Shown in pieces: positions 12,001 through 30,000 of a stretch of DNA of 64,000 bases (position 1 is its first letter; each line of letters opens with the position of its first letter). Made by a program: the position numbers. The DNA lies in the NCBI RefSeq assembly GCF_011386835.1, contig NC_088794.1, positions 1,860,001 through 1,924,000 on the forward strand. Reading direction: 5' to 3'. The DNA comes from Chrysemys picta bellii (lineage: Eukaryota).

Positions 12001-15000
12001 AGCTCATGGTGCTGGGGGGACAGGGCCCGGCGGGGTCACCGCTGCGGAGAAGCTCGCGGCGCTGGGGGGGAGGTCCCGGCGGGGGCACCGCTGCGGAGAA
12101 GCTCGCGGCGCTGTGGGGGGGAGGGCCCGGCGGGGGCACCGCTGCGGAGAAGCTTGTGGCGCTGGGGGGGAGGGGCCCGGTGGGGGCACCGCTGCGGAGA
12201 AGCTCGCGGCGCTGTGGGGGGGAGGGCCCGGCGGGGGCACCGCTGCGGAGAAGCTTGTGGCGCTGGGGGGGGAGGGCCCGGCGGGGGGGCACCGCTGCGG
12301 AGAAGCTCGCGGCGCTGGGGGGGAGGGCCCGGCGGGGGCACCGTGGCGGAGAAGCTCGCGGCGCTGGGGGGGAGGGCCCGGCGGGGGGCACCGCTGCGGA
12401 GAAGCTCGCAGCGCGGGGGGCAGGGCCCGGCAGGGGCACCACTGCGGAGAAGCTCGCGGCGCTGGGGGGGGCAGGGCCCGGCGGGGGCACCGCTGCGGAG
12501 AAGCTCGCAGCGCGGGGGGCAGGGCCCCGGCGGGTGGCACCGCTGCGGAGAAGCTCGTGGCGCTAGGGGGGCAGGGCCCAGCGGGGGCACCGCTGCAGAG
12601 AAGCTCGCGGCGCTGGGGGGGAGGGCCCGGCGGGGGGCACCGCTGCGGAGAAGCTCGCAGCGCGGGGGCAGGGCCCGGCAGGGGCACCACTGCGGAGAAG
12701 CTCGCGGCGCTGGGGGGGCAGGGCCCGGCGGGGGGCACCGCTGCGGAGAAGCTCGCAGCGCGGGGGCAGGGCCCGGCGGGGGCACCGCTGCGGAGAAGCT
12801 CGTGGCGCTAGGGGGCAGGGCCCAGCGGGGGGCACCGCTGCAGAGAAGCTCGCGGCGCTGGGGGGAGGGCCCGGCGGGGGGCACTCCTGCGGAGAAGCTC
12901 GCGGCGCTGGGGGGGCAGGGCCCGGCGGGGGGCACCGCTGCGGAGAAGCTCGCAGCGCGGGGGCAGGGCCCGGCGGGGGGCACCGCTGCGGAGAAGCTCG
13001 CGGCGCTAGGGGGCAGGGCCCGGCGGGGGCACCGCTGCGGAGAAGCTCGTGGCGCTAGGGGGCAGGGCCCGGCGGGGGGCACTCCTGCGGAGAAGCTCGC
13101 AGCGCGGGGGGGAGGTCCCGGCGGGGGCACTCCTGCGGAGAAGCTCGCGGCGCGGGGGCAGGGCCCGGCGGGCTCCCAGCTGTGTGTTTTGCTTTGCAGT
13201 TGCTGCTCTGCCCCACGGGCCGAACCGGCGTCTCCCAGTGGCCGGAGCAATCCCGGGCCGCGGCGCCGGCGGCCGCCATGGTCCGGCTCTCCAAGCCCAA
13301 GACATTCCAGGCCTACCTGGACAACTGTCACCGCAGATACAGCTGTGTGCACTGCCGGGCACATCTGGCCAACCACGATGACCTCATCTCCAAGGTCACT
13401 GCTGGGGGGAAGCTCGCAGCCTGGAGGGAGGGGGAAGGGAAGTGGTTGCAGCATGTTCAAGTAAACAACACAAGGGGAAGTGGAGGGACAGGAGACGGGG
13501 GGGGGGGCAATGAGTGGGGAGGTAAAAGCCACAGCTCTGCCGGTGCCCCTCACTCCCGACCCCGCAGCCCCTGCTAGCCCAGCCCTGAGCTCCCCCCCCA
13601 GCTCTGCCGGTGCCCCTCACTCCCGACCCGCAGCCCCCGCTAGCCCAGCCCTGCCCCCCCCCAGCTCTGCCGGTGCCCCTCACTCCCGACCCGCAGCCCC
13701 CGCTAGCCCAGCCCTGCCCCCCCCAGCTCTGCCGGTGCCCCTCACTCCCGACCCGCAGCCCCTGCCAGCCCAGCCCTGCCCCCCCCAGCTCTGCCGGTGC
13801 CCCTCACTCCCGACCCGCAGCCCCTGCCAGCCCAGCCCTGCCCCCCCAGCTCTGCCGGTGCCCCTCACTCCCGACCCGCAGCCCCTGCCAGCCCAGCCCT
13901 GCCCCCCCCCAGCTCTGCCGGTGCCCCTCACTCCCGACCCGCAGCCCCTGCCAGCCCAGCCCTGCCCCCCCCAGCTCTGCCGGTGCCCCTCACTCCCGAC
14001 CCGCAGCCCCTGCCAGCCCAGCCCTGCCTCCCCCCAGCTCTGCCGGTGCCCCTCACTCCCGACCCGCAGCCCCTGCCAGCCCAGCCCTGCCTCCCCCCAG
14101 CTCTGCCGGTGCCCCTCACTCCCGACCTGCAGCCCCTGCTAGCCCAGCCCTGCCCCCCCCAGCTCTGCCGGTGCCCCTCACTCCCGACCCGCAGCCCCTG
14201 CCAGCCCAGCCCTGCCCCCCAGCTCTGCCGGTGCCCCTCACTCCCGACCCGCAGCCCCTGCTAGCCCAGCCCTGGGCCCCCCCCCATCTCCGCCGGTGCC
14301 CCTCACACCCAACCCGCAACCCCTGCCAGCCAAGCCCTGGGCCCCTGCTCCACAGCTCTGCCGGTGCCCCCCCACTCCCGTGGCTGTGAAGGGGTAACTG
14401 AGTTTGAGCCGTTAATAAGTGATCTGGGCTCAGTGGTGGGGGAGGATTGGGGGAGCAGGGCGACTGTGGGGGGGAGCTCAGCCTGGGTGGGGGAGGGGCT
14501 CGCTGGGTTTAAAGACCCTCTTGTCTTTTATTCCAGTCTTTCCAAGGGAGTCAGGGAAGAGCTTATCTCTTCAACTCAGTGTGAGTACATTTGGGGGAGG
14601 GGGGGTGGGCAGGGAATGGGACCCAGGCATCCGGGACAGCTCTCAGAGACTGGGAGACAATGGGACCCAGGCGTCCGGGACAGCTCTCAGAGACTGGGAG
14701 ACAATGGGCCCCAGGTGTCCGGGACAGCTCCCAGAGACCTGGACAGCAATGGGACCCAGGTGTCCGGGACAGCTCCCAGAGACCGGGACGGCAATGGGAC
14801 CCAGGCATCTGGGGATTTATCCATGCAGGGTTCCCAGCCTGCTGGGGGAGGGCAAGAGCGCCTGGGATGGGGGGTAGGACCCAGGTGTCCGGGCATTGAC
14901 CTCTCCCCCCCTCCCCAGGGTGAATGTGGGGTGTGGGCCGGCTGAGGAGCGGGTGCTGCTGACAGGGCTGCACGCGGTATCGGACATCCACTGTGAGAGC

Positions 15001-27000: not shown

Positions 27001-30000
27001 GTTCGAGCCCTTTTGCCCCGCATTGGACCGGGCTGGGCGGCTCCTGGGCCCCTCACCCTCGGGGCCCCTGCCTGCCCCACCCCTGCCCTACGGGGGCGGG
27101 CAGCAGCTGCCCCCGGCCGAGCCCCCCCGCCTGCCCCCCAGCGTGCGGATGAGCCTGGAGAACCGGGAGCTGTGGAAGCGGTTCTGCGCCCTGGGCACCG
27201 AGATGATCATCACCAAGTCGGGGCGGTAAGGGGGGGTGGGGCGGCCCTGGGGAGCGAAGGGTCCGTGGGGGCGTCTCTGGGGTGGGGGGCCCTGGGGGAG
27301 GGAAAGGTCCATAGGGGAGGTCTCTGGGGTGGGGGGTTCTTGGGGAGGGTCCCGTGGGGGGAAGGGTCCGTGGTGGGGTCTCTGGGGTGGGGACCCCCGG
27401 GGGGGCGTCTCTGGAGTGGGGGGTCCATGGGGGGGGTCTCTGGGGTGAGGGGGCCGTGGGGGAGAGAAGGGTCCATGGAGGGGGTCTCTGGGGTGGGGGT
27501 CCATGGGGGGAAGGGTCCGTGGTGGGGTCTCTGGGGTGGGGACCCCCGGGGGGGCGTCTCTGGAGTCGGGGGTCCATGGGGGGGGTCTCTGGGGTGAGGG
27601 GGCCATGGGGGAGAGAAGGGTCCATGGGGGGGGTCTCTGGGGTGGGGGTCCATGAGGGGAAGGGTCCGTGGGGGAGCTGTGGGGGAGGGAAGGAGCCCAG
27701 GGGGAGCAGAGGTGGGGGAGCCAGGCTGTATTTTAGGGGTCACAGGATATCCCCGACCCCTTTGGCCTTCCTCCGACATCCCTGTATCCCTCCACCCACA
27801 TATAGTTCCGCCATCTCATCTCCTGCCCTCTATATCGCCCCGTGCCCTCTGCCCCATAGAGTCCCTGCGCCCCTGTATCCCTCCGCCACCTCGCCTAGAC
27901 AATATCCCTCCACGCCCCCATGTTTGTCACCCACCTGTAGTCCTCAGACCTCTGCCCTTATTGCCCCAACCCCATTGCTGCTAACGTCCCATATCGCTCT
28001 GCCCCATAGAGCCCCCACGCCCTCGTATCCCTCTGCCCCACATTGCCCATCACCCCCCCGTATCCCTCCGCACCGTCGAGCCTCTCACCCCCTGTATCCC
28101 TCCGCCCCATCGAGCCCCTCATGCCCCCGTATCCCTCCACCCCATAGATCCCTACATGCCCCGGTATCCTCCACCCCATTGAGCCCCTCATCCCTCGTAT
28201 CCCTCCACCACATCAAGCCCCTCACCCCCCATATCCCTCCACCCCGTCGAGCCCTACACGCCCCGGTATCCCTCTGATCCGTTGAGCCCCTCACGCCCCC
28301 GTATCCCTCCGCGCCGTCGAGCCCTACACGCCCCGGTATCCCTCCGCCCAATCGAGCCCCTCACACCCCATATCCCTCCACCCCGTCGAGCCCCTAACGC
28401 CCCGGTATCCCTCCACCCCGTCGAGCCTCTCACGCCGCCGTCGAGCCCCCTCACACCCCATATCCCTCCGCCCCATAGATCCCTACACACCCCATATCCC
28501 TCCACCCCGTCGAGCCTCTCACCCCCTGTATCCCTCCGCCCCATCGAGCCCCTCACACCCCATATCCCTCCGCCCAATCGAGCCCCTCATGCCCCCGTAT
28601 CCCTCCACCTCGTTGAGCCCCTCACACCCCGTATCCCTCCGCCCTGTCGAGCCCCTCACGCCCCCATATCCCTCCACCCCATAGATCCCTACACACCCTA
28701 TATCCCTCTGCTCCGTCGAGCCTCTCACACCCCGTATCCCTCCGCCCTGTCGAGCCCCTCACGCCCCCATATCCCTCCGCCTCGTCGAGCCCCTCACGCC
28801 CCCATATCCCTCCGCCTCGTCGAGCCCCTCACGCCCCCGTATCCCTCCACCCCGTCGAGCCCCTCACGCCCCATATCCCTCCGCCCCGTCGAGCCCCTCA
28901 TGCCCCCGTATCCCTCTGCCCCACGTTGCCCATCACCCCCCATCCCTCCGCCCCGTCGAGCCTCTCACCCCCTGTATCCCTCCGCCCCATCGAGCCCCTC
29001 ATGCCCCCGTATCCCTCCAACCCATAGATCCCTACATGCCCCGGTATCCCTCCACCCCATTGAGCCCCTCATCCCTCGTATCCCTCCACCACATCAAGCC
29101 CCTCACCCCCCATATCCCTCCGCCCTGTCGAGCCCCTCACGCCCCCGTATCCCTCCGCCCTGTCGAGCCCCTCACACCCCATATCCCTCCACCCCATAGA
29201 TCCCTACATGCCCCGGTATCCCTCCACCCCGTTGAGCCCCTCACCCCTTGTATCCCTCCACCACATCAAGCCCCTCACCCCCCATATCCCTCCGCCCTGT
29301 CGAGCCCCTCACGCCCCCGTATCCCTCCGCCCTGTCGAGCCCCTCATGCCCCCGTATCCCTCCGCGCCGTCGAGCCCCTCATGCCCCCGTATCCCTCCGC
29401 GCCGTCGAGCCCCTCATGCCCCCGTATCCCTCCGCGCCGTCGAGCCCCTCACGCCCCCGTATCCCTCCGCGCCGTCGAGCCCCTCACGCCCCCGTATCCC
29501 TCCGCCCCGTCGAGCCCCTCACGCCCCATATCCCACCACCCCGTCGAGCCCCTCACGCCCCCGTATCCCACCGCCCTGTCGAGCCTCTCACGCCGCCGTC
29601 GAGCCCCCTCACACCCCATATCCCTCCGCCCCATAGATCCCTACACACCCCATATCCCTCCACCCCGTTGAGCCCCTCACCCCTCGTATCCCTCCACCAC
29701 ATCAAGCCCCTCACCCCCCATATCCCTCCGCCCTGTCGAGCCCCTCATGCCCCGGTATCCCTCTGGCCCGTTGAGCCCCTCACGCCCCCGTATCCCTCCG
29801 CCCCGTCGAGCCCCTCACGCCCCCGTATCCCTCCGCCCCGTCGAGCCCCTCACGCCCCGGTATCCCTCTGCCTCGTCGAGCCCCTCACACCCCATATCCC
29901 ACCACCCCGTCGAGCCCCTCACGCCCCCGTATCCCACCGCCCTGTCGAGCCTCTCACGCCGCCGTCGAGCCCCCTCACACCCCATATCCCTCCGCCCCAT

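What the first reader, a model, noticed from the sequence alone, without database searches (positions are those of the whole stretch)
14100..27760. Tandem 6-7 kb duplication of YPEL3 3' / TBX6 5' around a 500-N gap
Seen: about 14100-20298 recurs at 20799-27760, with near-identical unique sequence, a few SNVs (including Thr/Ala in TBX6) and different VNTR lengths. Inference: most likely a false duplication of two haplotypes joined at a scaffold gap. If real, it duplicates the TBX6 promoter and 5' exons. Known: TBX6 is dosage-sensitive for somitogenesis and vertebral malformation in mammals, so a real duplication would matter.
[Added by the scan's program, not by the reader: the finding's places include an assembly gap (unread letters, written N; its length is only estimated) at 20299 to 20798. 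Whether the letters on both sides are continuous or in frame is not known: test that first.]
Basis: partly seen in the sequence, partly recalled or inferred. Interest (0 to 1): 0.65.

Follow-up and report, generated by a model that had tools for sequence, protein, structure and literature searches.

The report
False duplicate at turtle scaffold gap
The apparent tandem copy of the end of YPEL3 and the start of TBX6 is most likely two overlapping contig ends that a scaffolder placed side by side around a filler gap, so it is an assembly artefact and not extra turtle genes.

Summary
Left 14097-20290 recurs at 20799-27760, ending and starting at the single 500-N gap. Outside tandem arrays the copies differ by 10 substitutions in 2613 aligned bases (0.38%) and 24 small indels, 17 of them single-base-run length changes. 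Seven minisatellites differ by roughly whole units. Each copy holds YPEL3 coding exons 2-4, the intergenic region and TBX6 exons 1-2. YPEL3 exon 1 and TBX6 exons 3-8 occur once. Each copy has a different +1 G frameshift in a YPEL3 exon, so the literal assembly encodes no intact YPEL3. No junction is sequenced. 500 N is the 3D-DNA default, and a gap between duplicated pairs is a published hallmark of false duplication. Named Chrysemys picta bellii records tile exactly: full TBX6 and a "partial" YPEL3 on the right copy, and a 127-aa "TBX6-like" on the left. My estimate: artefact about 0.87 (two haplotypes favoured), real duplication about 0.08. Reads were not available, so this is not proven. 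Biological interest is low; the value is in curation.

The parts
13278..13394 (+). YPEL3 first coding exon (Met ... ISK, GT donor follows). Single copy, upstream of the duplicate.
   Evidence: its first 12 residues occur once in six frames.
13532..14380 (.). 63-bp minisatellite (13.4 units) in the YPEL3 intron. The right contig starts inside the equivalent array (20799-21078, 4.4 units).
14097..20290 (+). Left copy of the duplicated block, i.e. the end of the left contig.
14537..14581 (+). YPEL3 coding exon 2, left copy, in frame (SFQGSQGRAYLFNSV).
14920..15027 (+). YPEL3 coding exon 3, left copy. Identical to the right copy.
15858..15948 (+). YPEL3 last coding exon, left copy. Broken by one extra G in a G run at about 15892.
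17858..17987 (+). TBX6 exon 1, left copy. Identical to the right copy.
19679..19928 (+). TBX6 exon 2, left copy (Thr at residue 91). With exon 1 it makes the annotated 127-aa 'TBX6-like' record P0139. No exon 3 follows before the gap.
20291..20298 (+). 8-base tail of the left contig that does not match the right copy (3 of 8).
20299..20798 (.). Assembly gap of 500 N. It was not filled and no letters were sought for it.
   Evidence: 500 N is the default of 3D-DNA and SALSA2.
20799..27760 (+). Right copy of the duplicated block, i.e. the start of the right contig.
21122..21280 (+). Open frame that the public 'YPEL3, partial' record P0102 starts with: intron read-through plus YPEL3 exon 2, shifted by one extra G (GGG to GGGG, about 21243).
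21566..21673 (+). YPEL3 coding exon 3, right copy.
22689..22778 (+). YPEL3 last coding exon, right copy, in frame, with stop.
24784..24913 (+). TBX6 exon 1, right copy. Used by the full-length public model P0128.
26976..27225 (+). TBX6 exon 2, right copy (Ala at residue 91, as in the Mauremys and Pelodiscus references).
27988..31679 (.). 35-bp C-rich minisatellite, about 3.7 kb, filling most of TBX6 intron 2. It begins about 220 bases after the point where the left contig stops.
31800..35074 (+). TBX6 exons 3-8, single copy: 31800-32069, 32275-32418, 32518-32589, 32766-32834, 33007-33228, 34778-35074 with stop.

Best explanation
This is a false (assembly-made) duplication. At a 70% G+C locus that is half tandem repeat, the assembler failed to join two contigs whose ends cover the same 6-7 kb: YPEL3 exons 2-4, the intergenic region and TBX6 exons 1-2. 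The two tips most likely come from the animal's two haplotypes. They differ in minisatellite lengths and in about 0.4% of bases, and they also carry uncorrected single-base-run errors. A Hi-C scaffolder then put the contigs in the right order and orientation and wrote its default 500 N between them, so the shared stretch appears twice. Shown here: the overlap geometry, the kinds of differences, the broken YPEL3 exons and the effect on the public annotation. Inferred: that reads would show half depth, that the tips belong to different haplotypes, and which assembly and scaffolder produced the window. My confidence that this is an artefact of either type is about 0.87. The figure given here (0.62) is for the two-haplotype version.
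For: (1) The duplicate ends at the gap on the left and starts at the gap on the right: 14097-20290 | 8-base tail | 500 N | 20799-27760. Overlapping contig ends guarantee this geometry. (2) No junction is sequenced. The 8-base tail occurs 3 times in the window including itself (1.44 expected by chance) and never near the start of the unit. (3) 500 N is the default of 3D-DNA and SALSA2 (PMC9292758, passage). The current painted-turtle reference was scaffolded with 3D-DNA from ~20x HiFi reads of ~14 kb, and the words 'purge', 'haplotig' and 'polish' do not occur in that paper's main text (PMC13077969, passages and section 18). The 6.2-7.0 kb overlap is shorter than one read. [quoted passage not shown] (5) There are 10 substitutions in 2613 aligned unique bases, 0.38%, against 0.48% between the two haplotypes of the sequenced turtle. 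Of seven arrays, 4 are longer on the right, 2 on the left and 1 is about equal, by roughly whole units. (6) 17 of the 24 small indels are single-base-run length changes, 10 with the extra base on the left and 7 on the right. Two of them fall in YPEL3 coding exons, one per copy. An independent Chrysemys model (P0097) has both exons in frame. My arithmetic: coding sequence is about 24% of the unique columns, so about 4 of 17 would be expected there without selection, and 2 were seen. So these changes behave like errors, not like selected alleles. (7) Read literally, the assembly has no intact YPEL3. (8) The two ends of the unit share no direct-orientation homology: all 36 weak hits are minus-strand.
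Against: No read depth, spanning reads, optical map or second assembly could be examined, so there is no direct proof. A true tandem duplication whose junction happened to fall in an unassembled spot would look the same in sequence alone, and assemblers do tend to break at real duplications. The 8-base non-matching tail at 20291-20298 is unexplained and could in principle be the first bases of a real junction. The assignment of the window to the HiFi/3D-DNA assembly is an inference from exact tiling of named proteins and from the gap size. A 156.56-Mb sequence length would fit either of the two public assemblies in that paper's Table 1. The public proteins P0102, P0128 and P0139 were predicted from this same sequence, so they show how annotation coped, not what the biology is.
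Confidence: 0.62

Rival explanations
1. False duplication of the homotype kind. Both contig tips come from the same haplotype, and all differences are read or consensus errors in poorly covered, G+C-rich, repeat-rich tips. The overlap was therefore not recognised and was left uncollapsed.
For: Single-base-run indels are frequent (17 in about 2.6 kb of unique sequence) and hit conserved coding exons in both copies, so tip quality is clearly poor. Depth was only ~20x overall. The geometry at the gap is the same as for the best explanation.
Against: There are 10 substitutions in 2613 bases, and minisatellite differences of roughly whole units in both directions. From recall, HiFi consensus errors are mostly indels and rarely substitutions. 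The substitution rate matches the reported heterozygosity. [quoted passage not shown]
Confidence: 0.25
2. A real, very recent tandem duplication of 6-7 kb in this turtle. It would give a promoter-bearing but truncated TBX6 copy (exons 1-2 only) upstream and a promoter-less YPEL3 3' part downstream, with the junction merely unassembled.
For: Sequence alone cannot exclude it. The assembly places the copies in tandem in the same orientation. Assemblers often break at true duplications. The last 8 bases of the left contig depart from the right copy. NCBI annotated the left copy as a gene, 'TBX6-like'.
Against: The junction is exactly the part that is missing, and the adjacency rests on a fixed-size scaffolder gap. 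Reads of ~14 kb should have crossed a junction flanked by unique exons 1-2 kb away (inference). The copy that would have to serve as the working YPEL3 (exon 1 plus the left copy) has a frameshift in its last exon. The divergence equals ordinary heterozygosity. There is no direct homology at the ends for unequal crossing-over. The 8-base tail matches nothing near the start of the unit. The 127-aa product holds only positions 1-26 of the 182-position T-box profile.
Confidence: 0.08
3. A mis-placed piece. One of the two contigs, or its tip, is a leftover haplotig or a paralogous segment from elsewhere that the scaffolder wrongly inserted here.
For: Hi-C scaffolders do place small leftover pieces next to their allelic partner (general knowledge, not from a call).
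Against: Each contig carries single-copy sequence that the locus needs: YPEL3 exon 1 lies only on the left, and TBX6 exons 3-8 lie only on the right. The gene order GDPD-family, YPEL3, TBX6, PPP-type phosphatase, aldolase is coherent across the join. So the two are true neighbours with overlapping ends.
Confidence: 0.04

Closest known systems
Heterotype false duplication in vertebrate assemblies (Ko et al. 2022, PMC9516828, passages read; also Rhie et al. 2021, PMC8081667, seen only as a search listing)
   Same: Two near-identical copies lie side by side on one scaffold with an assembly gap between them. The divergence is at the level of heterozygosity. The annotation gains a '-like' gene, as with that paper's ZBTB11 / ZBTB11-like example.
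   Different: Here the evidence is sequence geometry only. Read depth, linked-read discordance and k-mer copy number, which that paper uses to call and classify such cases, were not available. Only parts of two genes are doubled. The assembly is probably HiFi-based, whereas the worst cases in that paper were in older Sanger or Illumina assemblies.
Homotype (error-driven, under-collapsed) false duplication, same sources
   Same: Contig tips with many single-base-run errors, including frameshifts in conserved exons.
   Different: Substitutions and whole-unit minisatellite differences at heterozygosity level point to two alleles and not to one allele read twice.
Genuine tandem segmental duplication or copy-number variant at the TBX6 locus (human 16p11.2 TBX6 dosage and vertebral malformation: recalled, no paper read here)
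   Same: The same conserved gene neighbourhood, supported at family level. The same gene is involved.
   Different: Those variants change the dose of the whole TBX6 gene over hundreds of kilobases (recalled). Here only exons 1-2 would be doubled, and the extra copy could not encode a T-box domain. No junction is sequenced.

Membership tests
False duplication (criteria of PMC9516828) | A gap between the duplicated pair on the same scaffold | tested here: met
   The single 500-N run lies exactly between the copies.
False duplication (criteria of PMC9516828) | Half read depth (heterotype) or very low read depth (homotype) over the copies | not testable with these tools
   No reads are available.
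False duplication (criteria of PMC9516828) | Discordant or spanning linked-read or paired reads across the pair | not testable with these tools
   No reads are available.
False duplication (criteria of PMC9516828) | Haplotype-specific single-copy k-mers in the copies (heterotype) | not testable with these tools
   A proxy only: 10 substitutions in 2613 bases, 0.38%, against a reported heterozygosity of 0.48%.
Overlapping (dovetail) contig ends | The shared sequence is the end of one contig and the start of the next, in the same orientation | tested here: met
   14097-20290 ends 8 bases before the gap, and 20799-27760 starts at the first base after it.
Genuine tandem duplication | A sequenced junction joining the end of the unit to the start of the unit | tested here: not met
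   The place of the junction is the N run. The 8-base tail matches nothing near the start of the unit.
Genuine tandem duplication | Both copies at full depth, and present in other haplotypes, individuals or related species | not testable with these tools
   No eukaryotic genome or read collection is on hand.
Genuine tandem duplication by unequal crossing-over | Direct-orientation homology between the two ends of the unit | tested here: not met
   All 36 hits at E <= 1 are minus-strand and 10-29 nt long. This does not exclude non-homologous mechanisms.
TBX6 (T-box transcription factor) | A complete T-box domain and match to named TBX6 orthologues | tested here: met
   For the right copy plus downstream exons: T-box profile 1-26, 26-116 and 115-166 in successive exons, 94-98% identity to Mauremys mutica TBX6 exon by exon, and exact tiling of Chrysemys TBX6 P0128. 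The left copy alone has only profile positions 1-26.
YPEL3 (Yippee-like) | Yippee domain and match to named YPEL3 | tested here: inconclusive
   Single exons score below the Pfam cut-off (18.1 and 17.2 bits against 26.6). The exons tile named Chrysemys 'yippee-like 3' records exactly. The choice of paralogue 3 rests on those names and on gene order. The joined protein was not searched.

The most novel reading that the evidence does not exclude
The duplication is real: a very young 6-7 kb tandem copy, possibly polymorphic, in the painted turtle. It would place a second TBX6 promoter with exons 1-2 upstream of the intact gene, able to express a 127-residue N-terminal TBX6 fragment without a DNA-binding domain in presomitic mesoderm, and it would leave a promoter-less YPEL3 tail.
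Probability: 0.08. Interest if true: 0.45.

Novelty: not a real feature. Interest (0 to 1): 0.12.

Why it matters
Biologically it matters little, because most likely there is one YPEL3 and one TBX6. The practical value is in curation. The named public records for Chrysemys picta bellii include a 127-aa 'TBX6-like' protein, which is the left copy's exons 1-2. They also include a 5'-partial YPEL3 whose first 53 residues are intron and frameshift read-through. Neither public YPEL3 model that I saw contains the true first coding exon. Gene-family counts, orthology tables and 'gene gain' scans in turtles would pick these up as real. The case also shows that a long-read, Hi-C-scaffolded assembly can still hold false duplicates at gaps in G+C-rich, minisatellite-dense regions, with local base errors strong enough to break conserved exons.

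Tried and rejected

(2) An unfiltered tblastn of the TBX6 reference was swamped by proline-rich low-complexity matches. I filtered by identity and searched sub-regions, then used exact tiling.

(3) 21 of the 23 large indels are longer in the right copy, which looked like a systematic collapse of the left tip. Counted per array it is 4 longer right, 2 longer left and 1 equal, so I dropped the idea.

(4) I tested the 8-base tail of the left contig as a possible true junction. It has no match near the start of the unit, and its 3 occurrences in the window are at chance level. It remains unexplained.

(5) I looked for direct homology between the ends of the unit, as needed for unequal crossing-over, and found none.

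(6) I compared frameshift density inside and outside the duplicate. There are 2 frameshifts in the doubled coding exons. There are none in TBX6 exons 3-8, as judged against the Mauremys reference. The numbers are too small to be significant, and the exact tiling of P0128 is circular because it was predicted from this sequence.

(7) Comparison with other turtle genomes, the alternate haplotype, or reads was not possible.

(8) Supplementary files of PMC13077969 (assembly versions, Bionano corrections, heterozygosity tables) were not seen. They may say whether duplicate purging was done.

(9) A search for 'TBX6' + 'turtle' + 'duplication' found 10 papers, none with TBX6 in the title or abstract. 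PMC13077969 does not mention TBX6 or YPEL3 in its main text.

(10) No structure, complex or RNA tools were used, because nothing here called for them.

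
Full report
**What is in the sequence.** The window is 64 kb and 68% G+C, with a single run of N at 20299-20798, exactly 500 bases. Comparing the sequence left of the gap with that right of it gives long E = 0 matches in the same orientation. A global alignment with free ends places left 14097 opposite right 20799, the first base after the gap, and the last left base 20298 opposite right 27766. 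A local alignment of the extreme ends shows that the last ~100 matched bases of the left contig are unique sequence, not array, and match right ~27660-27760 almost perfectly. The first 300 bases of the right contig lie in a 63-bp minisatellite and then unique sequence, matching left 14097-14400. Read base by base, correspondence stops at 20290 <-> 27760, and the last 8 bases before the gap match at only 3 of 8 positions.

**How alike the copies are.** BLAST's ~91% is misleading because it reflects mis-registered tandem arrays. Outside the arrays called by Tandem Repeats Finder there are 2603 identical columns, 10 substitutions (0.38%) and 24 small indels. 17 of the 24 indels are length changes of a single-base G or C run, 10 with the extra base on the left and 7 on the right. 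All 23 indels of 15 bases or more lie in arrays. Counted per array, the right copy is longer in 4 (+187, +177, +369, +171), the left in 2 (-45, -64) and 1 is about equal (-2), roughly whole repeat units. The copies are 6202 and 6968 bases long.

**Gene content, exon by exon.** Open frames in both copies hold three YPEL3 coding exons and two TBX6 exons.
- Pfam places T-box profile positions 1-26 in exon 2 of both copies, 26-116 in a single exon at about 31800-32069, and 115-166 in the next exon.
- The open frame with exon 2 finds TBX6 of Mauremys mutica at 94% identity (4 proteins at E <= 0.001 among 2123 candidates).
- Exons 1, 2 and 3 match that reference at residues 1-43, 43-130 and 128-220.
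- YPEL3 coding exon 1 (13278-13394) occurs once, and TBX6 exons 3-8 occur once, downstream of the right copy.
- The neighbours are a GDPD-family exon upstream, and a PPP-type phosphatase and a class-I aldolase on the minus strand downstream. From recall, this is the order of human 16p11.2 (GDPD3, YPEL3, TBX6, PPP4C, ALDOA).
- I do not take the window for human.

**Differences in coding sequence.** TBX6 exon 1 is identical in the two copies. Exon 2 has a synonymous T/C and an A/G that gives Thr (left) or Ala (right) at residue 91. The Mauremys, Pelodiscus and Chrysemys references all have Ala. YPEL3 exon 3 is identical. YPEL3 exon 2 is in frame on the left but has one extra G (GGG to GGGG) on the right. 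The last YPEL3 exon is in frame on the right but has one extra G on the left. A named, independent Chrysemys model (P0097) differs from the window at 4 of 40 residues upstream, so it comes from another assembly or animal. It reads both exons in frame. Each copy therefore carries its own frameshift in a very conserved gene. Read literally (exon 1 plus the nearest copy), the assembly encodes no intact YPEL3.

**Where the window comes from and what the annotation did.** Three named NCBI records of Chrysemys picta bellii, all listed on a 156,561,005-base sequence, tile the window exactly.
- The full TBX6 (P0128, 482 aa) uses the right copy's exons 1-2 and the downstream exons 3-8.
- 'Protein yippee-like 3, partial' (P0102, 118 aa) uses only the right copy. 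Its first 53 residues are window 21122-21280, which is intron read-through plus the frame-shifted exon 2.
- 'TBX6-like' (P0139, 127 aa) is the left copy's exons 1-2, read through the exon 2 donor into an immediate stop. It differs from P0128 only at residue 91.

These records were predicted from this very sequence, so they show the consequences of the duplicate and are not independent evidence about biology. A paper on the current painted-turtle reference describes ~20x HiFi reads of ~14 kb, hifiasm, linked-read scaffolding, 3D-DNA Hi-C scaffolding and manual optical-map curation. It reports 0.48% heterozygosity between the two haplotypes. The words purge, haplotig, polish, TBX6 and YPEL3 do not occur in its main text (PMC13077969; passages and section 18). 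That the window belongs to that assembly is my inference, from the exact tiling, the fully resolved long minisatellites and the gap size. Its supplements were not seen.

**Why I read it as an artefact.**
1. Overlapping contig ends necessarily give a duplicate that stops at the gap on one side and starts at it on the other, and that is what is seen.
2. The only sequence that would prove a tandem duplication, the junction, is exactly what is unread.
3. 500 N is the default that 3D-DNA and SALSA2 write between pieces joined by Hi-C contacts (PMC9292758, passage). The adjacency therefore rests on contact data and not on spanning sequence.
4. [quoted passage not shown] It separates heterotype (two haplotypes) from homotype (read-error) cases (PMC9516828, passages).
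5. The substitution difference (0.38%) is what two haplotypes of this animal would show (0.48%), and the minisatellites differ by whole units in both directions.
6. The single-base-run changes behave like errors. Two of 17 fall in coding exons, which make up about 24% of the unique columns (about 4 expected without selection; my arithmetic), and both break a conserved protein.
7. The overlap of 6-7 kb is shorter than one read, as expected for thinly supported contig tips.
8. The ends of the unit share no direct-orientation homology (all 36 weak hits are minus-strand).
9. Half of the window (49.5%) is tandem array, which is difficult ground for an assembler.

**What speaks against, and what stays open.** Sequence alone cannot tell a false duplicate from a true tandem one whose junction is unassembled, and assemblers do break at real duplications. 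The 8-base tail at 20291-20298 is unexplained. It occurs elsewhere only at 39493 (-) and 59768 (+), 3 matches in all with 1.44 expected by chance, and a 17-base version has no good second match. So it does not point to the YPEL3 intron, but it is not accounted for either. Read depth, spanning reads, the alternate haplotype and other turtle genomes could not be examined with the tools at hand. I put the artefact at about 0.87 (two haplotypes 0.62, same haplotype 0.25), a real duplication at about 0.08 and a mis-placed piece at about 0.04.

**Comparison with what is known, and novelty.** This is the known kind of error called a false (heterotype) duplication. It resembles the ZBTB11 / ZBTB11-like example in PMC9516828: an adjacent duplicate, a gap between the copies, and a '-like' gene in the annotation. 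It is not a new biological feature. A search for TBX6 + turtle + duplication found 10 papers, none about this. Even if the duplication were real, the extra TBX6 copy could encode only 26 of the 182 T-box profile positions. It would not raise TBX6 dose in the sense of the human 16p11.2 variants (recalled).

**Verdict.** Biological interest is low, but the finding is useful for curation of the public records.

Noticed in passing
window 43022-52576: A 9.5-kb G-rich tandem array with an 18-bp unit (about 502 copies, 64% matches), with GC skew about +0.65. It lies between the phosphatase and aldolase genes.
   Followed up: no
window 27988-31679: A 35-bp C-rich minisatellite of about 3.7 kb fills most of TBX6 intron 2. 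The left contig stops about 220 bases before it.
   Followed up: partly
window 13532-14380, 18298-19653 (= 25226-26950), 56656-57176 and 60498-61558; apparently reverse-complement at 9451-10284 and 17277-17430 (= 24047-24426): A dispersed family of related 61-63-bp minisatellite units recurs in several introns and spacers. It causes cross-matches between 13.5-14.4 kb and 60.4-61.6 kb at 84-88% identity. The reverse-complement members are my reading of the unit consensuses and were not aligned.
   Followed up: partly
window 20291-20298: The last 8 bases of the left contig (ending GATC) do not match the right copy (3 of 8) and have no meaningful match elsewhere. They may be contig-tip noise; this is unexplained.
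   Followed up: yes
window 11154-11273, 13278-13394, 21122-21280: Neither public Chrysemys YPEL3 model that I saw contains the true first coding exon (13278-13394). P0097 starts in an upstream stretch at 11154-11273 (36 of 40 residues identical). P0102 starts in intron read-through just after the gap.
   Followed up: partly
window 33544-34309, 36037-37860, 41158-41562: There are open frames that look like remnants of retroelements (my impression is CR1-type LINE tails, from recall). One group lies in the only AT-richer stretch of the window (36-38 kb, 41.5% G+C). 3 of 3 such frames tested had no Pfam match.
   Followed up: partly
window 9005-9364 (+), 39818-41244 (-), 55363-57350 (-): Neighbouring genes are confirmed at family level: a GDPD-family exon upstream, a PPP-type phosphatase and a class-I aldolase downstream on the minus strand. 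The order matches human 16p11.2 as I recall it.
   Followed up: partly
window 1-64000: 49.5% of the window lies in tandem arrays with TRF score of 200 or more, and 2-kb windows reach 77% G+C. Other gaps and duplicates may be expected in such regions of the same assembly.
   Followed up: no
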